A DNA stretch of 64,000 bases from Amoebidium appalachense (lineage: Eukaryota; Protista; Ichthyosporea), in contig CAVNZM010000005.1 in NCBI GenBank assembly GCA_963693365.1, forward strand, positions 1,302,001-1,366,000, read 5' to 3'. Numbering within the stretch: position 1 is the stretch's first letter; each line of letters begins with the position of its first letter. Position numbers and translations under genes: made by a program. Positions 15,354-62,039 of the stretch are shown here, one piece after another. The notes beneath the pieces were generated by a model. It was given only the letters and a program-made list of their open reading frames with translations, did not search any database and had not been told where the DNA came from.

Positions 15354-18285
15354 TCAAGATGAGGGGGAAGGCGTGGTGTTAGAACACCATCTACATTTTT
15401 TCCTTTAGGTGCTGTTGGTGGCGCACGCATACAGGAGTGTAGCATTTGTGCACCGCCCCATACTGGGATCGCAATACTATGAAGGACTCAAATGCCAAAC
15501 GAAGAACACCCCCAAAAACCAATTACTTGCAAGCCCACAACGGCAGCATCCTCAAAACACGTCAGTACTCCTGACCGTTACATTGCACGGTGTGTGTGTG
15601 TATGTGTGCATGTACTACGGTTCTGGGGCTGACTGTGTGTGGATGGTGGGTAGGGTGGTGATGTTGGGGAGGACGTAGTTGCAGTGGGTGTGTGGAGGGG
15701 AGGGGAGGAGGGGGGGGGGGGGGGGGGGGGGGGGTGGGAGGGAAGGGGAGGGAGACCGACGTGAGAGTGAGGAGGGGGGGGAGGGGGGGGGGGGTTTTGA
15801 ATGCGTCAAAAAGTACGAAGTACACAAGAACAAACGGATAACACGATGCAGAATGCAAGCCATACATAAAGAGTATGCATAATAAGCAGAGCCCATCCTC
15901 AGGGGGGGCCCACGTCATCCACAGTACCCGAGTTTCGACCTATTCCCCTCGTTAACGAAACCCAACTCAGATACTGTTTCACTTGAACATGAGTAGGTCA
16001 CCCGTCTTGATCAGAGACGAGCAGGGTTGCTTATGCAGGCAAGGGCAGTGGGAAAGGCCGGGGGTTAAAGTTGCAGCAGTAAGCAGAAGCAAGAAAAATA
16101 TGGAGGGGGGGGGGGGGGGGGCGGAGGTTACCTGCCACATGGCCCAGCCCTTATCGACCATGGTGTGGTGAAGGAAAAAGACAGGGTCATTGGGTGAAAA
16201 CAAAACGTCATTCATGGTGCCGCCGTTGCCCCCAACATTCACATGGATCGTGCCGTGCCAGATTTTTCCACCAATCAGAGAAGCTCTGGAATGCGGGGCG
16301 GTTCAAAAAACCGGCTGCTGCTTCAGCCGGCCCAATGGTGCGCCAGGTGACCCCAAATGGCCTGGTCACACACGTGTTGCCGTTGTAGCGGATGGGACCG
16401 ATGAGGGTCTGCATGACACATGACGAGCCTGATGTGGGTAGAGAGAAAGAGGGGAAGACACTGTGAGTTCATGCTTTGTGGCAACAGATATCGTGTGCAC
16501 GTGTGCGGCGGAGAGGTTGTTTGGTTAGTCCGGAATCTACAGGGCCGGGCCTCCAGCCAAAAAAAAAAAAAAACATGTAAACGAGACTAATGGTCGAGAT
16601 GAGAGGTGATCGAGGATGAGGGGCGGGCGCGTGCGGGGGAGGGGGGGGGGGGGGGGGGGGGTAGTAACAGTAGTACAACGACATGCAACGACGAACTGGG
16701 CAAAACAGGATGCGCAGAAAGGATGCGGAGCATGCAGAGCCCACACACACCATCGGCCCCCTTTTTCCTCTTTCTGGGTACCCTGTCCAGCCCCCACCCG
16801 CATAAGTGCTAATCTACCGCTCTTATTTCTTTTTCAATGCAACATCATGTCATTCTCCTTTTGCTGGTAATGTTGGTGGTGGGTTCATTGAGTTTTCTTT
16901 TTATTCAGGGAAACGGGAAGGGAGGGGAGGGGGGAGGGGGCAGGGGGGAGAGGGGGGGGGGAGGGGGGTACTCACTGATGCCATCCCAGTCATCAATGAC
17001 ACTGATGGAGGGCCGGGTGGTCTGCACATCCTTGACGTCCTGGGTCCAGTCCCAATATGGCAGGGTCAGGCACGCATAGGAACCCCCCAGGGCACGCAGC
17101 TGGTTCTCGTACATCAGAAGCATCTGCCGGTGCCAGGCCAAAAACGCATTACTGTTGTGGCCATATTCGTTGGTGGCGGGGTTCCAATGGAGAGACTTGA
17201 CACGGTCCCATTGCCCGGAAGTGAACAGGGTTCGAACGGCACTAATGAAATTGTCTTTTTGCGCACGTGTAAGTTCACGCCATTCCTTGCGCACACGTCT
17301 TCCCTGTGCGTCAGACAAACCTGCACACACGTCGGGTGGAGGGGGTGGGGGTGCTGCGGAGGTAGTGGTTGTAGTAGTTGTGGTGGTTGTCCTCCTCGTT
17401 GTCGTGGTGGTGGTGGTGGTGGTGGTGGTGGTGGTTGTGGTGGTGGTGGTGGTGGTGGTGGTGGGTTTTGGGGTTGTAGTGGTGGTGGTGGTGGTGGTGG
17501 TGGGTTTTGGGGTTGTAGTGGTGGTGGTGGTGGTGGTGGTGGTGGTGGGTTTTGGTGTTGTAGTTGTGGTGGTGGTTGTGGGCGGGGTCGTGGTTGTGGT
17601 GGTGGTGGTGAAGGGATCGGGTGTTACAGAACGTGTTGTAGTCGTTGTGGTGGTGGTTCTCGTGGTGGTTATTGGCGGGGGGTTGGTGGTGGTCGGATTT
17701 AGGGTAGTGGTTGGGCCCGGATTTGGGGGGCAAATCACGTATCCGTAGCCTTCTGGGCTGTTGCATATGCAGTAGAAGCTCCCACGGGTGTTAATGCACC
17801 GCCCCCTTATTGGGCAAGGGGTGCTTACACATTCGTTGATATCCACACACGCTTTGTATTGGAAGGTAAATCCTTTGCGGCACCGAACACACCGCCGGCC
17901 ATTCCAATTACTTCCTGCAGGGCAGTTGGTGCCAGTGGCCACACAGCCCAGTGTCGAGTCCCAACGATAGCCATCGGCACACGTGGAGCGGCATAAACCT
18001 GTGTGTTTGTGTGTGTGTGTGTGTGTGTGTATGTGTGTGTGTGTGCGTGCGTGTGTGCGTGCATGCGAGCGTGCGTGTGTGTGTGTTGGGGGTGGAGGGG
18101 GGTGGGGGGTCAGGAGTGTGCTTGCATACACGAAAATAACATCTGTATTATCTATATCACTTTGTTTGTTTTCAAACCCTCTGCAATTTGTTGATGCAAT
18201 CCTTCCATGATCTGAGAAATTAATGTTATAGCTTGCTGGTTGTGTTCTCACCTGGGTCGGCCCAGCATTCTGCATGCTTGTAGCC
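14663..18285 (-). CDS. Tyrosinase (type-3 di-copper) with N-terminal Cys-rich/EGF-like modules and a Thr-rich linker; apparent frameshift; 5' end unresolved
   Basis: Exons 18285-18252 (probable), 17998-16976, 16428-16132, 15310-14663. Motifs: CVDINECVSTPC...CINTRGSFYCIC (Ca-binding EGF), RVRKEWREL, H...GH..NAFLAWHR, LPYWDW (CuA), HGTIHVNVGG, SPNDPVFFLHHTMVD (CuB), LGYTY. The 297-nt middle exon is out of phase with its neighbours. Confidence 0.85.
15795..16101 (-). mobile_element. Poly(C)-ended element (subfamily A) in a tyrosinase intron
   Basis: Reverse complement of 4290-4596, flanked by G runs on both sides. Confidence 0.85.
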
Positions 18286-19673
18286 CTTTACAATTCACCA
18301 AAAATTTTAGCTAAGACTTCATATGTGGAGGGAGTGTCCTACCATATCCGTCCATGTAGAAGCCGTCATCACACCTCAAGGGGACGAAGAATGATAACTG
18401 TGTGTATCCAGTTTCCGCACACAGGAGCAGGCACACTGCCCACACCAGTATTAAGGTAGTCATGTTTTCTCAATCCTGCTCCCCGTATGCGCTATGTGCT
18501 GGGCACATTAAAATATTAATGCGGTAAATTGTGGGTGGGAATGAAGGGTGCAGAGTAGTTAGACTCGGGGAGTCTTCTGGCGCACAATTTCCAGACAGCA
18601 CGCCGAATGTGCCCGTCTGGGGTCCTAAATAAGCTGCTTGCGCATTGAAGGTAGGTAGGTGCCTGTGTATCGAGGGTTTGCAGGGCAGAGTATGTGCCTG
18701 CAGCTGAAGGCAGCACTTATATATACATTTTGATAGCTATCGCATCACACAAGTCAGCTTGCACAACCATTCAAGAATGCGTGCGACTCACGGTAAGCTT
18801 TAGGTAGCTTTTATGGTGTTTGTTGTTTCTTATTTCTCGAAGACCGTTCCGGAGGCTTTGTGGCCTCGGTCACCGTGGGACTGTCCGTGGCAGCGGGTAG
18901 ATCTGAGTCACTGACTCATTTGGAAAGCACTGATTGGCTGTTGCCTACCATGAAGGCAGGAGCAGTGTAAATTGATGCGGTGCAGGCTGGCAGCCTGGCA
19001 GACGTCGACTGCAGCATTCCGTGCTCGTGCCATGCTGTGACTGCTATACATTAATAGGTTGTATTATTCAGGCAAGTCCAATAATTTAGTATTTAGCTGC
19101 TGATAGCTTCCACTATATCTCTATCTCACTAATTTGATAATTTTCTAATCGAACTTCCAGTCCTCTTCTGCCAACGTTCTGTGGTTGCTAGCTGCATTGC
19201 CCCCGTGTAGCCTCCCGGCCGTGTACAGAAGTGTAGATTGCTACTTTGGATGAAAACAATTTTTTCCTGGTATTATTTTCTTAGTAATAAAGATTGTACT
19301 AAGTCTTTGGAGCAGATGTGCCCCTTACAAATGGTGCGAGCACATTTCGACTTCTAGAAATATTTAGCACCGCTCAAATAGATTCACCTAGAACCGCTCT
19401 TGCAAATCCCCCCCCAAATTTTGAAGCATTCAGATGCTAAAAAAATCAAAGTCATTCATCCACATGCATTACCACTGGCAGATCGATATAGCCATTATGA
19501 ATATTTATCTTCAGATTTATATATAAATGCTGTAAATAGTACCTAATACTCCTGTTACACGTTCTTTATTAGTTTGATACTCTCGAACCAAATTCTTCGA
19601 CGAAGATCTTTCCGTCGAATAAATCCAGCCAAAAGAAAAATAGATCTCCTCCCCTCTCTCTCCCCTTCTCCCC

Positions 19674-26394: not shown

Positions 26395-27777
26395 CTATGC
26401 AGCCACATCTGTGTAGGACTTCTCATCATGGCCAGCCACCTTCTCACCCAGCAGGGGTGCTGCCACGTCATCGCGAGCAACAAGCACATCCTCGTGCATG
26501 ACAAGGGGCAGGAGGAGGAGGAGGGGCGTCCAGGCCAGAAACTGGATGAAGGCCGTGAATCCGAACGATGCCTCGTAGCCGTACAGGTCGACAATTAGCC
26601 CACCAACAACGGCACTCCCACTCCACCCGAAACCCGCAACGCTCTCAAGGGAATTCCACAAGCCGCGCTTTTCCGAGGCAACATAATCCATCAAAATGGA
26701 GCGGGTGAGGGGAACAACGCAGTTGATAAGTGCCGAGCGGATGATGTAAACTGCACACAGTACGTATGGTTGGGCCTCCCAGTAGTCGGGGAATAGGGCC
26801 ATAGCGGTGAGAAGGGCCACACCAATCGCCTTAAACGCTAGAGTGACCTCCACACGGCCAACCTTAAGCGACAGCCGCTGTGCAATCAGCGAGAAACACA
26901 CTTCGGTGAACGGGTCCAGCACAAAGAGGATGTTCACCGTGATGGGCGAGAGGTGTAGTTTCTCAGCAAAATAAATCGGGAAGAACTTGATGGTCATACC
27001 GCTCGCTAGGCCGAAAACAATATCGGATGTAGCCACAATCGCGGGCACCATGCTAACATGCAGCCAGCTGAAGCACCCACCCTTCCTCTTCTCGGCGGCT
27101 TCCAAACGGCGCAAAATCGCTGCGTCCTCCTCTGCTTCGGAATTTGTATCCTCGCAAATTGCCTTTGACTGTTCTTTCGCAGTTTTGTCGTCGTTAAAAA
27201 ACGCCAGCGAGCCAATGGAAATAATGTGAAGGGAAATACCGACGGCAAAGATAACGGTCATTTGTGGCATGCCCCAGTCGTCGCCCATATACGCAAACAA
27301 TACAACGTTGGTGATTGGCCCTGAGGCGAGGGACGCAATGCTCAGAATGTACCGGTACATTTCGTACTTGGAACGCTGGCCCGATGCCACTGAATCTGCG
27401 TAGATAGCATACATGGGTGGGGACCATGCACCCATATACAAACCAAAAATGCCCAAGCCAGCTGTAAGAAGGAGATAGTTCTCATACCAGTTGTTGAAAA
27501 ACTGGTACAAACCGGCAAGTGTAACCACCATGCCTACCAAACCAATTGCTGCGCTACCTTTTAGCACGGTATCACGCCTGTATTTATCGGCCAAAAGACC
27601 AGCCGGAATGGCTGCAAGGGCCTGCAGAGTGCCCTGCACACCTTCTGCATAACCTGCATGTTTGTTGTCTTTGCAAAGGGCAAACAGGTAGGGGCCAAGG
27701 ATTGCATAGTTCCACATGCCCATGGCCAGGCCATCGAAAAACGTGAATATGTTGGTGAGTGCTACGTTGTGATTCAT
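26395..27777 (-). CDS. Major facilitator superfamily transporter (no intron in the CDS)
   Basis: ~460-aa ORF with about 12 hydrophobic segments in a 6+6 arrangement, MFS motif A (GLLADKYRR), a second-half repeat (AQRLSLKVGR) and a hydrophilic central loop. First ATG at 27777; probable 5'-UTR intron with acceptor at ~27807. Confidence 0.9.
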   Translation of the reverse strand: MNHNVALTNIFTFFDGLAMGMWNYAILGPYLFALCKDNKHAGYAEGVQGTLQALAAIPAGLLADKYRRDTVLKGSAAIGLVGMVVTLAGLYQFFNNWYENYLLLTAGLGIFGLYMGAWSPPMYAIYADSVASGQRSKYEMYRYILSIASLASGPITNVVLFAYMGDDWGMPQMTVIFAVGISLHIISIGSLAFFNDDKTAKEQSKAICEDTNSEAEEDAAILRRLEAAEKRKGGCFSWLHVSMVPAIVATSDIVFGLASGMTIKFFPIYFAEKLHLSPITVNILFVLDPFTEVCFSLIAQRLSLKVGRVEVTLAFKAIGVALLTAMALFPDYWEAQPYVLCAVYIIRSALINCVVPLTRSILMDYVASEKRGLWNSLESVAGFGWSGSAVVGGLIVDLYGYEASFGFTAFIQFLAWTPLLLLLPLVMHEDVLVARDDVAAPLLGEKVAGHDEKSYTDVAA

Positions 27778-30590
27778 CTTGGCGTTTATTCCTAAAGTAT
27801 TGCTCACTAACGTGTCATTAGTACTAGTACTGGCCTCAGCTAGCTAGTGTGTGGTGTCACGGTATGGAAATGTTTGCTTTATGAAAAAAGAGTTGAGAGT
27901 ATAGATGGCAAGTTTTAAAGTGATGGTTGGGGTGGTAGTAGCTCTTGAATCTAGAAAGAGCACGATGCAGAGTGAAAGTCTGCAGTGCGATACCACAGCA
28001 CGCCTTTTTATGCTCGGGGCTCTAGCCGGCTGGGCTCCTTTCGGCAAAAGCAAGATTCTCAAAATGCATATGATTGGTCAACTAGTTCCTACCTTGATTA
28101 TAAGATGCGCTTACTTCCAATAACAAAACTTATAAATCATGTATTAGTTTTAGTGTTATAATGATTGGTGGATGGATCCACCACACACATGTCATCATGT
28201 AGTCAGTGCTCAGTACTAGTGACTCATAAGTCATAGCTCGAGTCTGCGAGTCGTGAGCGGGGTTGTGACCGTACAGCTGTACAACCGGCAGACTCAGTGA
28301 CACAGCCTACGCCTTTTCCCGCTAGCGCTGCACATATACACTGTAGCACGGAATCAAATAACAATGGTCTTAGCATACAGAATAGTATCATCGCCGAGAC
28401 AGTTTGGCTCAGTCGCAAAAAGCAGGAACAACCATCTGATTGGCCGATTATGTTATCCTAAAACCCCCTAGAACTTTTCGTATTTTCGGGTTTCCAGTAA
28501 TCTTGGAATTCTTGATTAGAATATTTTTGAGGAACTAAAGCATTTTCCCTACAAGGAAGTAGATGTTGCTCAATGAAAAAGCAAGTAACAAAAAGCCTTC
28601 CAGGGGACCATGTGGCTTTATGAGGCTTGCGAGGTTGATCGCAAAACTTGTCACAAATTCACAATGTCAAAACAGGGCTTCATAAGAAAACTGATTTTCT
28701 CAAAAAAATCTCAATTATGTCGCGTTTCAGTACCTCTTTCCCTACGGGTGTCTGCTACACTAGCTGGCAATGTGAACACTTTAGACTTTTTGTTGAATTT
28801 TGTTGTTTGTCACATTGAGTATTTATACGATTTTCACACAGTGTTCAGGTATCTCAGTATGCACTTGTTACTGGATAACTCGTGAAGTTTTTTATTGTCT
28901 TCTCAGTATGCCGTGCATACTTGCATATCTTTCCGTCGAATAAATCCAGTCAAAAGAAAAAAAAACGCATTCAATCACTGAAAATGTTTGGCGGTTTGGG
29001 GGTAGCGCAGCCCTGACTTCAGCCTGAGTGTGCGGCACGACGTCACGTGTGCGTGTTCGTGTGTGTGGGCACGTGTGGCAGTGTGATTGTGTGCGTGTGT
29101 GTGTACAGGTGTGTATGTAAGTGCGTGTGCGTACGTGTCTCTGTGTGTGTGCGCGTGTGTGTGCGTGCGTGTACATGTGTGTGTGCACGTGTGTATGTGA
29201 CTGTGTGTGCGTGTGTATGTGTGTGTGTGTGTGCGCGCGCGTGCGTGTGTGTTCAAATGATGTGTGCGCGTGTGACACTGAATGTGTGCGCGTGTGTACA
29301 GGTGTGTTTGTGTGTGTTCGTGCCTGCGCGCGCACGCGTGTGTGTGACGTGTGTGTGTGTGTGCGTGTGCGTGAGAGCGTGTGTGCGTGCGCGCGCACGT
29401 GTGTGCACGTGTGTGTGCACGCGTGTGTGCACGCGTGTGTGCGGGTGTGCCATTTAAAAAAATAGCTATAGTGAGGCCTCAGTCAGACGTCGACGTGTGT
29501 CCCAGAGATGTAATTAAAGTTCCAATATATTAGTAGTGCCACGTGCTGAGTCAGCTGAGTGTCCACGCGTACGGTACCGGTACCGGTGTGTTCATAAACA
29601 ACAAATGCCGCGGCCGTGTGACTGTGCACGTGACGGCATGATGCACATGTGCACATACATACGCGTGCGTTACAGTATGACATAACATATGCATGTTTGA
29701 TAATGCATGATATATTATTCTGATGACTATGTGCGCCTGCAGCTGTCTATGTGTGTATGCATGACGGTGTGACTGGCCGTGGGGTGGGCACAAGACTACA
29801 TGCGTGTGACACTGTGTGCATGCGTGCTTGTGACCGTCGTGTCTGTACACGTGATCATGAGTGAGAGATAGTGTGTGTGCACCTATGACAGTCACTCTGT
29901 GTGCGTGTGCGTGTGCGTGTGGCACTGTACATGTACATGTGACATTACAGTAGTAGAGGATAGCATGTACATGTCCACAAGTCCGTGCCTGAGAATCAGT
30001 TTGACATGCTTTTCTTTTTTCCCCGGACGCATGCACGCTGGAAATTGCATGTGGTTCGGAGGAGAGTTCGGAGGGTGACTGTTCCTGTAACAGTAGAACG
30101 TGGATGCATATGATCTCAGTCCGTGCACCAATTATGGGCTATATCCTGGTGTGCGCAGGGTTGGGGCATGTGGGCACGGGGGGCTGCAGGTGGTGGGATT
30201 CGACTATTCGAGCATCATTAATTAAGGGTTTGTGTGTTCGAATTGAATCAGAGCCTACCAGTACTACGATCAGTGGTCCTCTAATACCTATCACTGTTGA
30301 ACATGCATGTGATGGTCCTGGGGCCTGGCCAGATGGCGTATGAGTGTCAGTGTCACAATGTCATCACATCAGGGATTTTTGAATTTGAAATGGGAGGGTG
30401 GGGGGAGGGGCGGGGGGAGGAGTAGTTAATAGCGACGCCCGCCCAGGTGGTGCCCCCCTTCCCCCCCCCCCCCCCCCCCCCTCCCCCCTCTCCAAGGTAG
30501 CCGCAGGGGTGGGTGGGTCCCCCTCCCCCGCCCCCCTCCCCCCCCCCCCTCCGGGGGGGGAGGGACCCATCTGGATGAGTGGGGTGGTGG

Positions 30591-34751: not shown

Positions 34752-37700
34752 TTACTTGGCGGCCTTCTTGGCCAGGGCCTTAAGGGACTCGGTGGTCATG
34801 GACTTGGGGCGCTCGATGGGCAGACCCAGGGCGCGGTCCCAGACAAGGGAGGGCAGCACACCCATGGCACGGGACACACCGAAGAGCACCGTGTAGAAGT
34901 TCATCTCCTTCAGGCCGTAGTGCTGCAGCAGGACACCGCTGTGGGCATCCACGTTGGGCCAGGGGTTCTTGGCCTTGCCCTGCTCGAGCAGGATGTTGGG
35001 TACCACCTTGTACAGCAGAGACACCTGTGTGTAGAGCCCGGTTAGCACCACGTCATGTTTGTCGTCTTCAACCACCAAGACACAGAAAAGCAGGAGTGAG
35101 AAAGATTGACTGGCAGGGAGCGAGGGCGGTGTTTGTGTGTTGGTGGGGGGTCTGCTCATAAGAAGGAAAAGACACGAGGGCCTATAGGTCCTGGGAGGAG
35201 GGAAGAACAACTAAAAACAGGTAACAGCAGCCCGAAGAGAGAGGGGGGGGGGGGGGGATGGGATGCAACCATGTGCACCAGAGTCTGAAAAACTTGTAGG
35301 GAGAGCAGAGGAATGAAGGGCAGCCCGAGAATAACATCCCCCGGGGGGGGGGGGGGGGGGGGGGGGGGGGAGGGGGGGGGGGGGGGGGGAGGGGGGAGGA
35401 TGGGAGCTTGTACGCATCAGAGCACAGAGCAAACGGGCAAACGAGCAAGAAGGATCAAATGATGGAAGGAAAAACAACGACAGTTCCGAACACATACCAG
35501 CTTGAAGTTGGGGTCCTCGGGCAGGTGCTTCAGGGCAAACTCACGCTGGCAAGTGTAGCGGGGGTCGGTCTTGCGGAGCACAGCGTGACCTGTCATGACC
35601 AGACCATCAGTGTTATTGTAGATGTAAGAGGGTGGAGCTTTTTGTTGGTTTAAGAGGGTGGGAAAGCATGTGCCGGTGGGGATGGGGGGGGGGGGGGGGG
35701 GATATGAAAACACAAGGTTTGACAACCCTGGGAGAGGTAACCTGTGGAGATAAGAATCAATTACTTTCGGAAACTCAAGTGGCACAGGAGGGGAGGCGGG
35801 GGGGGGGGGGGGGGGGGGGATCCTCGAACAGTGAATGTTGGATGTGAAAAAACGACCAAAGCTCGAGACGAGGAACAGGGGGCAGGGCATACCGTAGCCC
35901 GGGACGACCTGGCCAGAGTTGAGGGTGGCCCAGACGGCCTCAGAGACGGCCTTCTCGTTGAGGTTGGCCTGCCAGTCAGCACCGAGGCGCTCCTTGAAGC
36001 GGGTGAGCCAGATCAGCACCTCCTGGTTGGCCAGGCCGTGCAGGGGGCCGGCCAGACCGCAGAGGCCGGCAGACAGGGACAGGTAGGGGTCCGACAGGGC
36101 AGAGCCCACCAGGTGGGTGGTGTGGGCAGACACGTTGCCACCCTCGTGGTCGGCATGGATCACGAGGTACAGGCGCAGGAGCTCGATGAACTTGGTGTCG
36201 TCATAGCCCAGCAGGTGCGCAAAGTTGGCGCCCAAGTCCTTGTCCAGGTCGATGGCACCTGCGGGCAAGGCACAGTGAGCAACATGAAGTGCTCAGACCC
36301 TCCTTACTAGAAGGTTAGAGTACCTATCACAAGCAAGGCAAAGCTTGAGGGAGAGAGGGGAGAGGAAAGTAAAACGAGCCCCTGGAGGATGGGAGCAGAT
36401 CACGAGCAAGGCAGAGCTTGGGAGGAAGGGGGGGGGGGGGGGGGGGGGTTGGAATCGGAGAGAGGATGAACCAGGAGTTTAAAGACTACATCGTAAGCAA
36501 TACCGAACGGTTGGGGGGAGGCATTGCAATGGACACGAGCAGTAGACAGGGCAAGGAACTGCGATATGCAGTGGGTTGAGATGGCCAAGAGAAGAACATC
36601 CATTGAGTACATTCCCGAGGGAAGGGGGGGGGGGGGGGGGGGCTATTTACCGATGGAGCCATCCTTGAAGACGTTGCGGTAGATCTTGGCAGCCACAACG
36701 GGCAGCTTGGCAATGCAGTCGATGGAGTCCTCAAGGGCAAGCTCCCAGTACTTGCTCTTGTTCACACCCTCGGCATAGGCCTTGGCAAACTTGCTCTCGC
36801 TGTGCATGGCGGCAACGGCTGCAGGCCACATACTTGGTCAGCAATATTGTACAAAACGTGGACTCGACGTCCGATAAAACATAAAATGAAAGGATCGGGG
36901 AGTGCTGAGAGGGTGGGTGGGTGGTGGTGGTTGGGGGGAGGGGGGAGGAACAGTGCAAGGGAGACAAGGGACCAGAGGGGTTCTTTACCGGCGCTGAGCT
37001 GAGCCATGGGGTGGAGGGTATTGGGGAAGTTGTCGATCATGGTGACAATGTGGGGGGGAAGGTCGGCGCGAGCAGCAAACTCCTTGGACATGGCATTGAC
37101 CTGCATGGCATCAAGAAGTCAGGACTGAGAAGCATGCTATCCCCACTTTCCTGAGGCAAGGTTACACTAAGGCCCCGGGGGAAATGGGCCCCGGAGGGAG
37201 AGGGAGAGAACAAGGGGGAAATGGGAACTTCTCCCACTTTCTTGACCCCCTAGTTTGAAGCGTCCCACGTGAAGCATAAAACGGGTATATTTGTGGCCTG
37301 AGGATAAAGGAGCACTGTGCAAGGGAGGGGGAAGAGGGACAGAGGGATAATGGTGAAAGCACAAGCTTACCTGCTCCTGGGTGGGGACCTCGCCGGTCAG
37401 CAGCAGCCAGAAAGCACCCTCAGGCAGGGGCTCCTCACCACCGGGGGCCTTGGGGAGCACACGCTGAAGATCCGGGAGAGTGTGGTTGCGGTAGCGGATA
37501 CCCTGTTTGCAGCACACGGAGTAAGTAAATGCTTAAGTTACTGGTTGCAGCCACAGCCTTGTCTAGCAGCACGCCATACTTCCCCAACAACCCCCTCCAC
37601 CTCCTCCATCTTTCCCCCAAACACCACGCCACCCATACGAAAGCTAAACACAAGCCAACTGCAAAACACGACTCCCGCCAAGCCACTGCCACCTATAGGC

Positions 37701-38671
37701 AAGCACCCACCTCCTCAGCGTCAAGCAGAGAGGTCTCAGTGACGAGGCACTTGATGCCGCGGGCACCACCATAGGCCTGGTCGATGGTGTACTGACCGAG
37801 GGACACGTTGCCATACTCCTTGCGGAACTTCTTGACATCCTCAATGGTCTTGGGGACGATGTCGTCCATGCGGTCCTTGAGCATAGTAGCACCCTACATA
37901 CGAAACGATAAACGTCAGCTGCTTGCAATCCACCACAAGTTCGTCGTTTCGGGATGCAAGTTCCGAAACTGATTCTACAACGTTCCTTTACACATTCTTT
38001 AAGCTGATGGCCCACACTTATGATCACCTGCTCACAGGTCATGCTGGTGGCCTTAGCCTTTAGACCAGCTGATAACACGTCTGTCTCGACTCATTTAGAG
38101 CTTGCCCACGACAGAGAATAGGGGCATATCCATGAACGAAGAATTTTATGATGCAGACAACAGGATGCTTACCGAGGTAGTCGACTTGTAGCGGAGGCCA
38201 GCGGCAACGGCGGGGGCCTGTTGGAAAGAAGTGATCAGATAAAGTTGTATCAAGCCACAAGCTTCCTTATTTTTTAAAAAGAAGTGTACTCGGTTTGGTA
38301 TAAAAAGGCTTCTTATCAAACAAGTAAGAGCCAAACCAGCTTCAAGACCAGAGGTTAAACGCCCACTACACAGGAGGTAAAAAAAAATTGGCTTGCTCAC
38401 TTTCCCGTTACCAAACTTCTTGTTCGAGTGTGGCTTGCTCACTTTCCCGTTACCAAACTTCTTGTTCGGGTGCATAATGCAAGTGTCTTGCTTGTCAAAC
38501 TCAGCTACTCCCCCCTAAGCATCATTGTTTTCACAGCATCACCCTGCTTTCCCACCAACTACGAACCAGCTGTTTACACCCAGTAGAACTTCTGACAGCC
38601 CACTCGCATGATACAAAACGTACCAGAGCCTTGCCGGTGAGGGCAGCGCGCTGGATAGTGGAGGCCAGCAT
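34752..38671 (-). CDS. CS: Citrate synthase, mitochondrial (eukaryotic type)
   Basis: Nine phase-consistent exons: 38671-38624, 38217-38173, 37893-37711, 37502-37371, 37100-36989, 36818-36651, 36258-35893, 35589-35498, 35024-34752. Motifs [76 protein letters not shown]. Arg/Ala/Ser-rich presequence. Confidence 0.97.
38389..38472. repeat. 42-bp tandem duplication in citrate synthase intron 1
   Basis: tggcttgctcactttcccgttaccaaacttcttgttcg(a/g)gtg, two copies. Confidence 0.9.
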
Positions 38672-38784
38672 CTTCGTGATGTAATCGGTGGTGGGAAAGA
38701 AACAAGGCAAACACAGAACGATCCCCCGACGTGAATGGCATAAAGGCCGAGGCGTGGCCTCCTTTTTGTAAGCAAATACTGAGA

Positions 38785-40940: not shown

Positions 40941-41771
40941 TTACAGATATTTTTTAAACCACTCAGCCGTTTTTGCTGCAGCATCCTCTCTTGCCTTCAC
41001 CACCTCCTCCTTGTCCTCCCTCCCTCTCACCGCAAACCCGTGGTCCGTGCCTGGGTAGCACACAATCTCGCTGGGAACCCCCTCCTCCTTTGCAAACAAC
41101 CCCTTCAGGTTCTCTCGTCCCTTTTCATCGAAAAACATGTCTGTTTCCGACAGCAAAAATAGAGTTGGGCGGGCCAGAGCGTCGATGTCACCAGGCACCG
41201 TAACACGTGAGGGATGGCACCCAACCACCGCATCCACTGCTGGCTCAGCCCCCCCGCCAACCAAAACCGCATATCTGCCGCCAAAACAGTACCCCACAGC
41301 ACCGATTCTCTTTGCTCCCCACTTCTCCTTCAGTTCGCTTATCACCGCTTTTACTTGTGGCAGCACAGCTCCGTCTGTGTTTCGTGCAAAAAAACCAACT
41401 AGGTAGGGTGCTGACGCCATAACCTTCAGCCCTTTCCACAGTTTCGCTCCCACTCCCGGTGCTTCTTCCATCATAAAGTCAAGCCGGTCTGTAGTCAGGA
41501 CCGGGCCGTTCAATATGTCTGGGAGCACAACAGTGAACCCGCTAAGCTCTGCCAGCTTGTCACACAGCAAACGTGCATTGACAAGCGACCAGCCAAAAAC
41601 ATCAGGTAGGAAGAGAATGATTTTGTCTGTGCGTCCAGTGGGTGGGTCGGCTACGTATGCTTGGCGTGAGGCAAGAGTCAACTCTGTGCCTTTGGGCGTG
41701 CCTGTGTGCACGAACCCTGTGGCACAGCAGGGAGGCACTTCGTCCGTGCGTGTGGCTGCTGTCTCTGCCAT
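40941..41771 (-). CDS. Dienelactone hydrolase family protein (intronless)
   Basis: 276-aa ORF with PPCC..G..H.GTPKG, DVFG, the nucleophile motif GYCFGG, HPS, ETD and YPGTDHGFAVR (Cys-Asp-His triad). Confidence 0.93.
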   Translation of the reverse strand: MAETAATRTDEVPPCCATGFVHTGTPKGTELTLASRQAYVADPPTGRTDKIILFLPDVFGWSLVNARLLCDKLAELSGFTVVLPDILNGPVLTTDRLDFMMEEAPGVGAKLWKGLKVMASAPYLVGFFARNTDGAVLPQVKAVISELKEKWGAKRIGAVGYCFGGRYAVLVGGGAEPAVDAVVGCHPSRVTVPGDIDALARPTLFLLSETDMFFDEKGRENLKGLFAKEEGVPSEIVCYPGTDHGFAVRGREDKEEVVKAREDAAAKTAEWFKKYL

Positions 41772-43725: not shown

Positions 43726-45070
43726 ATGGGGCCAAAAGAGCAAGAGCCAAAGTGGCAAGCACAACAGCGGCGCTCGTTCAGCCGTTGGGTAGATTCACAG
43801 TTAGAGCAAATTGGTGCGTCTGAGCTCATACGAGAAGACCTCCTTGAAAAACGCTTTCAAGATGGCCTGACACTGCCGCGTCTATTGGAGTCTCTCTCTG
43901 GCAAGAAAATATTGCGTAACCAGAGGCAGCTTGCTCCAAAAGGCCCTGCAGGCCGGGCCGACAACATTTTTCTGTGCATGGATCTGATAAAGAACGAAGG
44001 CATCAAGCTGGTGGGGGTAGGGGCTACAGATGTGATTCAGGGCTACACAAAAAATGGTGCTTGCGCTTGTATGGTCCCTTATCAAGCACTATAATTTTGG
44101 CGGCGAAACAAACAGCACGGGCTCAAAAACAACCAGCGCATCACCTCTCAAGACACAGCCAAGTGGCGAAGTGACAAATGCAGGCCCATCTTCCGTAGAT
44201 GTGGCACCGGCAGCCGAAACTTGTGCGGTGGACACCCCTTCACCCCAGCGTTCAAACGATCCCCTCCTTGCTTGGGTTAACGAGGTTCTGAAAACACAAG
44301 CACATAGCCCCATCGGCAACTTCACCAAAGATGTCCAGGACGGACATGTTTTCGTTGTGCTTGAAAACCACCTTAACGCAAAATACGGGTTACCCCCACT
44401 GGACCCGACGGCAACCACCGAAGATGTGTTGGCCCAGGCGTCGTTTGTGCACAAGATTCCGCGTCTAATTGATGTGGAGGACTTGGCAGATCCGGACGAA
44501 AAGAGTGTTATGTTGTACGTTTCGTGTTTTAAAAAGTGCGCAGAGGCCCCTCTCCCTCCACCCAAGGAGGTGGCAGCATCGGATGCGACGGTGGAAGCGG
44601 TCGGTGTATCCGAGGAGGCTCCCAAAGAGGTTAAGCTAGACCCCGAGACAACAGCAGTAGTCTACGTGCGAAAACCAACGGTTCCTGGCCAGCATGTGTA
44701 CATGGTTCCCCTGCCGCCAACAACACTTACGGGGCCACGCCGCCGTGAAGTAGCAGTGGGTGGGATGCAGCACTTGGCCTTGTCGCTCGACTGGACCTGT
44801 GCTCCTGACACTGACTGGTACCCGGAGGCAAGCACGTACGAGAGCCATGGGTATGGTTTTGACAAGCAAAACCTGTGGGGGGATCACTGTTGGAAGCTGA
44901 CTGCAAGTGTGGCAGGTTTGAGTGGAAAGACGGAGTTTAGCTTCTATGCGGTATTGACGCAGGAGCCAAGAGGCGAGGTGGTTGAGGTGAGCCTGCCACT
45001 GAAGGCGAAAGTCGGCCACATTAGTGTTGTGGATTTTAACGGTGGCAGTGCTAGCTACCACATTTTGTAG
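43726..45070 (+). CDS. Tandem calponin-homology (filamin/actinin-type actin-binding) protein with an extra C-terminal domain; split by a 1-nt frameshift at the A6 run 44049-44054
   Basis: CH1: WQAQQRRSFSRWVDSQL, FQDGLTLPRLLESLSGK, IKNEGIKLVGVGATDVIQG, continuing in the next frame as MVLALVWSLIKHY. CH2: LLAWVN, IGNFTKDVQDG, IPRLIDVEDLADPDEKSVMLYVSCF. Confidence 0.85.
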
Positions 45071-45430: not shown

Positions 45431-46502
45431 GTTTTGCATATTCAGGCACACACACACACATAACAACACGAACCCAAATTCACATGCACAGGTGCACGGT
45501 TGTGACGTGCGCACACAATGATTTCATGCGCTCGTAGGCATGCATGCATATACATATACACACGTTTTATGTACACTTGCAAACGCGCACACATACACGT
45601 AAGCGCAGGTTCACAAACTGAGTGACAAACACGCCCATGACAGGTTCGTGTCGTGAGCACACATCCCAAGAGCTCCACCATTTGTGGTTCAAAGCAGATT
45701 AGGATTGCTTGTCCACGGCACTGACAAAGGACGGCATATTTGTATTCGTGCCGCCTCTGTCATGATGTAAAGCAGGGCAAACCTAATAAGTGCAAGTCAA
45801 AGCTCGTTTATTAATAATGTTAGTCAGGGTGGCTCTGCCTGCTCTGTAAGTTCATGTGTGTACATAAAAATCCTCAGTGGTGACCCTTTCCATGGTCAGA
45901 TGGCCTGCAGTTTGGCATCTGTGCAACAGAAGAGCATAGCTGCTTACGAGAGGTGATGCGTGTTGCACTAACCAGCGAACAGCGTGTTTTTTGCAACCAA
46001 TGAGAGTTCGCATATCATTTTATCTCAGCCTATCAACTCTTCGCACAATAAGAGTTGCAATCTGAGTGTCCGAGGCTGGGTGGGGGCCGTTCGGTTTTTA
46101 TTTTTTGTGGCTCGCTGACGTAACTTGACTCGTAAGGACGGTAACCCCAGGAATAGTCCTTGTTGAAAATTTTGGGTGAGATAGGGGTTACCAGAAGTAG
46201 TTCTGATACAATACTTATGTTCACTTATGCTTCTGTGTGGATTCTACTTCAAGCAGCTTCCTTTTTATTGGCTCATTCCGTTCGCCGTTCGACCTACGCC
46301 TTTGAACACCACTCAAAACACAGCCAAGTAGGTAGTTACAATGTTACATAATGATTGATGATTGGTAGCTACAGTGTTACATGGTGAGTGGTGAAAGTGT
46401 TACCGTTTTTTGACAATCGACAACACTCGCGGACAGTCTATTGGACACACAAAAAAATACAACTATTACGTTAACCTCAGCTGTTTGATACGTTTTCAGA
46501 GG

Positions 46503-61946
<15,444 letters not shown>

Positions 61947-62039
61947 TAGACGTGTCTATCTCTGCCTTCTCCGCCTCTTCTATTACCCCCTCGTCCTCTC
62001 CCTCCCCTCTCATGCTCTCACTCACTCACTCACTCACTC

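What the first reader, a model, noticed from the sequence alone, without database searches (positions are those of the whole stretch)
44651..45070. Actin-binding CH-CH module fused to an amylase C-terminal-like domain
Seen: after a Pro/Glu linker, with no spectrin or filamin repeats, comes TAVVYVRKPTVPGQHVYM...LSLDWTC....WYPEASTYESHGYGFDKQNLWGDHCWKL. Known, from my recollection of the family: the C-terminal extension of Pseudoalteromonas haloplanktis-type and some invertebrate alpha-amylases has the pattern TVIFI..QT..GQD.F ... ALDWT...W.....T...G(F/Y)G...LN.WG.HYW.L. The motif order and spacing agree. The N-terminal part also loosely resembles CBM20. Inference: a novel cytoplasmic fusion that might link F-actin to a glucan or membrane ligand, possibly of lateral origin (the gene is intronless).
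Basis: partly seen in the sequence, partly recalled or inferred. Interest (0 to 1): 0.7.

Follow-up and report, generated by a model that had tools for sequence, protein, structure and literature searches.

The report
Actin-binder fused to starch-module-like domain
An expressed, intronless gene of a single-celled relative of animals joins an alpha-actinin/filamin-type actin-binding domain to a shortened copy of the tail domain of bacterial amylases, which is predicted to fold like a starch-binding module, so the protein would likely tether glycogen or another partner to actin filaments.

Summary
Observation confirmed. The window splits the gene with one extra A at 44049; three runs lack it, and a transcriptome protein labelled Amoebidium parasiticum has the intact 447-aa CH-CH plus tail fusion. 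A run shown to be RNA covers both parts unspliced. The 140-aa tail has no Pfam or NCBIfam match but belongs to a mobile bacterial domain family: 79 of 91 hits sit on starch enzymes, including Pseudoalteromonas and Alteromonas amylases; profile match 98.5%. Models of the tail and of a bacterial member both resemble CBM20-type starch-binding modules (Z 9.0 and 9.1). Bacterial members keep residues that align with CBM20 site 1; this copy has lost them and keeps a second aromatic cluster. One more fusion exists, 48% identical. Best reading: an actin-to-alpha-glucan tether (0.4); rival: a repurposed protein-interaction module. Lateral origin is plausible, not shown. No binding was tested.

The parts
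43726..45070 (+). Intronless gene for a 447-aa CH-CH plus CBM20-like-module protein (split in the window by one surplus base)
   Evidence: P0001 matches the tail at 100% and reads through; one unspliced contig of RNA run X4 covers 43648 to beyond 45200
43762..44094 (+). CH1, alpha-actinin/filamin type, including the last helix that carries the main actin-binding stretch (role of that stretch recalled)
   Evidence: Pfam PF00307; best PDB hits alpha-actinin E 7.8e-22, filamin E 3.4e-19
44049..44054 (+). Run of six A; one is an assembly error that causes the apparent frameshift
   Evidence: One base left out at 44049 in contigs of X4, X1 and X9
44096..44260 (+). Long Ser/Thr/Pro/Ala-rich linker between CH1 and CH2 (about 55 aa), poorly conserved
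   Evidence: 9 of 45 aligned positions identical with P0002; PDB alignments skip it
44261..44542 (+). CH2
   Evidence: Pfam PF00307 residues 179-272 of P0001; 47 of 89 identical with P0002
44543..44647 (+). Pro/Glu/Ala-rich linker, shorter in P0002
   Evidence: Sequence; alignment A1
44648..45067 (+). Shortened member of the amylase-tail domain family, predicted beta-sandwich of CBM20-like fold
   Evidence: sequence; model and fold
44783..44902 (+). Best-kept core of the module: the family-specific aromatic cluster (LDWT ... GYG.D..N.W..H.W), ending in the Trp that aligns with the CBM20 site-2 Trp
   Evidence: 40.7 bits of the profile score come from residues 353-414 of P0001; 22 of 40 identical with P0002; joint alignment with six CBM20 domains

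Best explanation
The gene encodes a 447-aa protein with a tandem calponin-homology domain and a C-terminal module of the bacterial amylase-tail family, and it likely works as a cytoplasmic adaptor that holds glycogen-type alpha-glucan on actin filaments. Shown: the fusion, its transcription as one unspliced RNA, the family membership of the tail, and a second divergent copy of the same fusion. Predicted: the CBM20-like beta-sandwich fold. Inferred: CH1-CH2 binds F-actin as in alpha-actinin and filamin; with no rod repeats it would bind one filament and not cross-link; the tail would grip alpha-glucan through the retained site-2-like Trp and the family's aromatic insert, since the site-1-like residues are gone. 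The module probably came from a bacterial starch enzyme and was shortened after fusion.
For: 79 of 91 family hits carry amylase or pullulanase domains by the precomputed Pfam column (my count); the module sits C-terminally in 67, N-terminally in 19, internally in 4 and alone in 2 of 92 proteins, as mobile binding modules do. The 12 best of 48,161 solved chains for the window's model are all starch-binding modules (CBM20 Z 9.0, rmsd 2.5, 89 aligned); a bacterial member (pLDDT 95.6) gives CBM20 Z 9.1, rmsd 2.2, 91 aligned, and Foldseek E 6.9e-4. The Atlas ranks CBM20 clusters at 0.94 for a bacterial member. The tail is kept between the two fusions at 45% (core 55%) against 59% and 53% for the CH domains and 20% for the CH1-CH2 linker, so it is under constraint. 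CH1 and CH2 align with the alpha-actinin-4 actin-binding domain through both halves. No signal or membrane segment.
Against: The window's copy keeps only 18 of 43 columns conserved in at least 90% of bacterial members (P0002: 16 of 43), and lacks the first LDW segment, the Lys, the WE and the NH; these align with CBM20 site 1, the better conserved site (PMC9920598, passages). Foldseek gives no hit at E <= 0.001 for the window's model (best 5.4e-3), and Z 9 is only slightly above the 7-8 typical of models without a clear match (note). Sequence-level kinship with CBM20 is weak: default profile comparison about 1% probability, and with lowered gap penalties 2 of 100 column shuffles scored as high. 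11 of the 91 hits are bacterial non-amylolytic proteins (esterases, phosphoesterases, a reductase, a sugar dehydrogenase, a fragment). No member of the family is known to me to have been shown to bind starch. The CH1-CH2 linker is unusually long.
Confidence: 0.4

Rival explanations
1. The tail lost sugar binding after the fusion and now serves as a protein-interaction or self-association module, making the protein a compact actin adaptor or cross-linker, in the way filamin uses its last Ig-like repeat (recalled).
For: Site-1-like residues present in 97-100 of 101 bacterial domains are missing here; about 30 residues are deleted in both fusions; the branch to the fusions is very long, as expected after a change of function; single-ABD proteins usually need a second contact to organise filaments (established knowledge).
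Against: What is kept is the family's surface-aromatic-type cluster and the site-2-like Trp, not only the strand pattern; P0002 still has an Arg and a WE near the site-1-like positions.
Confidence: 0.3
2. The family is not a starch-binding module at all but a secretion or surface-anchoring tag, and the eukaryotic copy binds some other glycan or membrane lipid, linking actin to the cortex.
For: The P. haloplanktis propeptide was first described as involved in wall spanning (title of Feller 1998 seen in the reference list of PMC1766363); the module is also on esterases, a reductase and a dehydrogenase; several enzymes of one bacterial contig each carry it.
Against: The propeptide is not mandatory for secretion in P. 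haloplanktis (PMC1766363, passages); the module also occurs N-terminally and alone; the predicted fold is a small sandwich matching CBM20/25/26/41, not a membrane barrel.
Confidence: 0.15
3. The CH pair no longer binds actin; the protein is a lineage-specific scaffold with another partner.
For: CH2 is divergent (17.6 bits against alpha-actinin-4); the CH1-CH2 linker is about 55 aa and variable.
Against: CH1 matches alpha-actinin and filamin over its whole length, including the C-terminal helix, and is the best-kept part between the two fusions (59%).
Confidence: 0.12
4. The fusion is an artefact of assembly or contamination.
For: The window holds a frameshift inside the gene and is full of simple repeats.
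Against: Single DNA contigs of two studies span the whole gene, an RNA contig spans it unspliced, a transcriptome protein is identical in the tail and continuous, a 48%-identical second fusion exists, and the flanks are eukaryotic genes with spliced introns.
Confidence: 0.03

Closest known systems
C-terminal propeptide/domain of Pseudoalteromonas haloplanktis-type GH13_32 alpha-amylase (and the extra C-terminal domain of some bilaterian amylases)
   Same: Same sequence family: 28.5 bits against a profile of 12 Pseudoalteromonas-type tails; 32% over 107 aa with the P. rubra tail; terminal position after a flexible linker.
   Different: About 140 aa, not about 190; no Cys pairs of that subtype; attached to CH domains, not to an amylase; no signal peptide. 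Closer in identity to the 89 shorter spirochaete/deltaproteobacterial-type tails (mean 27% against 22%).
CBM20 starch-binding domain (glucoamylase, CGTase, beta-amylase; cytoplasmic examples STBD1, laforin, GPCPD1)
   Same: Best structural match for both models; motif order aligns in bacterial members.
   Different: Two large insertions; no Pfam PF00686 hit; site-1-like residues lost in the window's copy.
Alpha-actinin / filamin / spectrin-family tandem CH actin-binding domain
   Same: CH1-CH2 order and sequence.
   Different: No spectrin, filamin or EF-hand repeats; long CH1-CH2 linker; foreign C-terminal module.

Membership tests
Amylase-tail domain family (P. haloplanktis propeptide type) | Significant profile match to the C-terminal extension of Pseudoalteromonas/Alteromonas amylases and relatives | tested here: met
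   28.5 and 51.5 bits against shuffle maxima of 10.3 and 5.6; hhalign 98.5%, 138 columns
Amylase-tail domain family (P. haloplanktis propeptide type) | Full set of conserved family motifs (GG.D, first LDW, FE.K, WE, NH) | tested here: not met
   18 of 43 conserved columns kept; these five motifs are absent. It is a shortened, degenerate member.
Amylase-tail domain family (P. haloplanktis propeptide type) | Direct match to the P. haloplanktis tail and to invertebrate amylase tails | not testable with these tools
   Neither sequence was returned by any search; P. rubra and P. piscicida enzymes stood in. The Atlas links a bacterial member to mollusc-rich and eukaryote-rich clusters at TM 0.73-0.79.
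CBM20 | Pfam PF00686 match | tested here: not met
   No family for the tail at E up to 10; none for P0001-P0004 tails
CBM20 | CBM20-type beta-sandwich fold | tested here: met
   Predicted models only: Z 9.0, rmsd 2.5, 89 aligned; bacterial member Z 9.1. CBM25 follows within about 1 Z unit.
CBM20 | Site 1 residues Trp543, Lys578, Trp590 (A. niger numbering; PMC9920598) | tested here: not met
   By sequence alignment only: absent in the window's copy; equivalents in 100, 97 and 97 of 101 bacterial domains. No residue-level structural alignment was available.
CBM20 | Site 2 Trp563 equivalent | tested here: inconclusive
   The Trp of H.W aligns with the CBM20 strand Trp in a joint alignment and is kept in both fusions; mapping not confirmed structurally
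CBM20 | Binds starch or glycogen | not testable with these tools
   Needs a binding assay
Alpha-actinin/filamin-type actin-binding domain | Tandem CH1-CH2 | tested here: met
   Two PF00307 stretches; both halves align with alpha-actinin-4
Alpha-actinin / filamin / spectrin proteins | Rod of spectrin or filamin repeats | tested here: not met
   Only CH found at E up to 1
Alpha-actinin/filamin-type actin-binding domain | Binds F-actin | not testable with these tools
   Needs co-sedimentation

The most novel reading that the evidence does not exclude
The amylase tail long described as a secretion helper is an unrecognised family of CBM20-derived starch-binding modules, and this lineage has captured one from a bacterium and fused it to an actin-binding domain to make a direct glycogen-to-actin tether.
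Probability: 0.3. Interest if true: 0.72.

Novelty: new variant of a known kind. Interest (0 to 1): 0.52.

Why it matters
I found no description of a tandem-CH protein with a starch-module-like tail (paper searches; open-access library only). If the tail binds alpha-glucan, this is a direct physical link between actin and glycogen in a close relative of animals. The side result may matter as much: the family of the P. haloplanktis amylase propeptide, which has no Pfam or NCBIfam model, is predicted to be a CBM20-like sandwich with site-1-like residues intact in bacteria, which turns an old open question about that propeptide into a simple binding experiment.

Tried and rejected
No whole genome is held, so paralogues and a possible endogenous amylase carrying the same tail could not be sought. 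Tail alone: no Pfam, NCBIfam, PDB sequence or Atlas hit at 0.9 or more; the word-indexed search found only the protein itself. No relatives in viral contigs and no viral fold match at E <= 0.001. No further CH fusion in metagenome contigs; the second scan gave 20 loci, none recognised as a CH fusion, which I did not check locus by locus. Homodimer prediction of the tail: no answer (score 0.08, mark 0.32, alignment not used); it bears on nothing. Profile comparison with CBM20: the first run included one locus translated on the wrong strand, redone; not significant at default settings, and the 96% value at lowered gap penalties is not trustworthy on its own (2 of 100 shuffles as high). Tree: quick search only, 70 of 103 rows after dropping rows over 78% identical, no animal rows; donor unresolved. 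Intronlessness as evidence of transfer: rejected as weak, since a dienelactone hydrolase and an MFS transporter in the window are also single long ORFs and GC3 of the tail (0.59) is close to the CH parts (0.54) and the hydrolase (0.56). Variants in run X14: 6 synonymous and 3 non-synonymous of 9 coding differences, too few to use. No run was on record as RNA; X4 was shown to be RNA by spliced contigs. Da Lage, Feller and Janecek 2004 is not held, so what it says on this domain is not checked here. Earlier findings of the scan: none.

Full report
Observation. Upstream lie two calponin-homology domains, one in ORF 43726-44094 and one in ORF 44054-45070. The two ORFs are one gene: contigs of runs X4, X1 and X9 each lack one base in the A run at 44049 (the fourth run laid, X14, does not cover the place), and P0001, a 447-aa transcriptome protein that its source labels Amoebidium parasiticum, reads straight through and is identical in the tail. 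X4 is an RNA run: its contigs skip five GT-AG introns of the neighbouring citrate synthase gene and leave most of the intergenic stretch uncovered. One X4 contig covers 43648 to beyond 45200 without a joint, so the CH domains and the tail are on one unspliced transcript. Neighbours are eukaryotic: citrate synthase, a dienelactone hydrolase, a kinesin.

The actin-binding part. The best solved relatives are the actin-binding domains of alpha-actinins (E 7.8e-22) and filamins (E 3.4e-19); both CH halves align, CH2 weakly. No rod repeats follow. A hydropathy scan shows no signal peptide or membrane helix. That the pair binds F-actin is inferred from the family.

The tail. It has no Pfam, NCBIfam or PDB sequence match. 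A full HMMER scan of 1.84 billion representatives gave four hits: itself, a second CH-CH plus tail protein from an unnamed record (P0002, 404 aa, 45% in the tail), a stand-alone bacterial-type domain, and the C-terminus of a spirochaete GH13 amylase. Expanding from these gave 91 proteins; by my count of the precomputed Pfam column 79 carry amylase or pullulanase domains, 11 are other bacterial-type proteins (six esterases, two phosphoesterases with CBM53, an aldo-keto reductase, a sugar dehydrogenase, an Ig/PKD fragment) and one is P0001. The set includes amylases of Pseudoalteromonas rubra and Alteromonas, and a P. piscicida amylase was found separately. The P. rubra enzyme matches the solved 453-residue amylase 1AQH at E 2.6e-220 and carries the tail beyond it; the window's tail matches that tail at 32% over 107 aa. 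Profiles built without the eukaryotic sequences score the window's tail 51.5 bits (89 short-type domains) and 28.5 bits (12 Pseudoalteromonas-type domains); the best of 1000 shuffles reached 5.6 and 10.3. Profile against profile gives 98.5% over 138 columns. The domain is mobile: C-terminal in 67, N-terminal in 19, internal in 4 and alone in 2 of 92 proteins.

Fold. The model of the tail (pLDDT 81.7, all-beta) matches starch-binding modules in all of its 12 best rows among 48,161 chains, CBM20 first (Z 9.0, rmsd 2.5, 89 aligned); Foldseek ranks the same domains first but only at E 5.4e-3. A bacterial member (pLDDT 95.6) gives CBM20 Z 9.1 and three Foldseek hits at E <= 0.001, all CBM20-bearing enzymes. 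The Atlas places another bacterial member near a mollusc-rich cluster (0.97), CBM20 clusters (0.94) and eukaryote-rich amylase-tail clusters (TM 0.73-0.79). These Z values are modest, and sequence-level kinship with CBM20 is weak.

Binding residues. CBM20 site 1 is Trp543, Lys578 and Trp590 and is the well conserved site; site 2 keeps only Trp563 (PMC9920598, passages read). A joint alignment with six CBM20 domains puts the family's first LDW, FE.K and WE on the site-1 motifs and H.W on the site-2 Trp (sequence alignment, not structural). These motifs occur in 100, 97, 97 and 93 of 101 bacterial domains. The window's copy lacks about 30 residues including the first LDW, has Tyr for the Lys, and lacks WE and NH; it keeps 18 of 43 conserved columns, P0002 16 of 43. 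Both keep the family's aromatic insert and the site-2-like Trp. The tail is 45% identical between the fusions (core 55%), against 59% and 53% for CH1 and CH2 and 20% for the linker, so it is maintained.

Mechanism. I commit to an actin-to-alpha-glucan adaptor (0.4): CH1-CH2 on a filament, the tail on a glycogen-type particle through its second aromatic surface. Shown are the gene, transcript, family and conservation; predicted is the fold; inferred are both binding steps. The main rival (0.3) is that the loss of site 1 marks a switch to protein binding or self-association. A third reading (0.15) keeps the older idea of a secretion or anchoring tag; against it, the propeptide is not mandatory for secretion in P. 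haloplanktis (PMC1766363, passages read) and the module also stands N-terminally or alone.

Origin. The tail is closer to the short bacterial type than to the Pseudoalteromonas type (mean identity 27% against 22%), which would fit a transfer separate from the animal amylase tails, but the tree puts both fusions on a very long branch, holds no animal rows and was a quick search. Some bilaterian amylases have an extra C-terminal domain (PMC3096672, passage read), so shuffling from an endogenous amylase is not excluded; no genome was held to check. Lack of introns and base composition do not single the gene out.

Literature. Ten searches of the open-access library (listings seen, passages read in four papers) showed no account of this fusion or of a CBM assignment for the tail. 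Da Lage et al. 2004 and Feller et al. 1998 were seen only as reference titles, and subscription papers or supplements may already discuss the fold or starch binding of the tail.

Verdict. A real, expressed, rare fusion (two sequences found). New variant of a known kind; interest 0.52.

Noticed in passing
L005, L006, L012 (Brevinematales contigs); proteins: Single bacterial contigs carry several starch enzymes that each bear this module, at either end; the module also occurs on esterases, CBM53-bearing phosphoesterases, an aldo-keto reductase and a PQQ-type sugar dehydrogenase, and alone after a hydrophobic N-terminus (P0003, P0005). The family has no Pfam or NCBIfam model.
   Followed up: partly
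window 16905-18287 (-): Exon(s) of a protein with a calcium-binding EGF domain, a long Thr-rich stretch and the start of a tyrosinase domain.
   Followed up: partly
window 36650-38673 (-): Citrate synthase gene; five GT-AG introns confirmed by spliced contigs of X4 and X12.
   Followed up: yes
window 40941-41771 (-) and 26395-27843 (-): Single-ORF dienelactone hydrolase and MFS transporter genes in an otherwise intron-rich window.
   Followed up: partly
window about 46500-62000 (+): Multi-exon kinesin gene starting about 1.4 kb downstream on the same strand (Pfam kinesin on one exon); resembles CENP-E by my recollection, not tested.
   Followed up: partly
window about 59700-61500: The same roughly 760-base block appears to recur two or more times (repeated translations), flanked by long (GA)n runs; could be a tandem duplication or an assembly artefact.
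   Followed up: no
window about 58800-59450: Long array of a 15-base unit giving repeated peptides in several frames.
   Followed up: no
window 43625, 36939, 44049: Homopolymer lengths differ by one base from short-read contigs; other frameshifts in this assembly may be artefacts too.
   Followed up: partly
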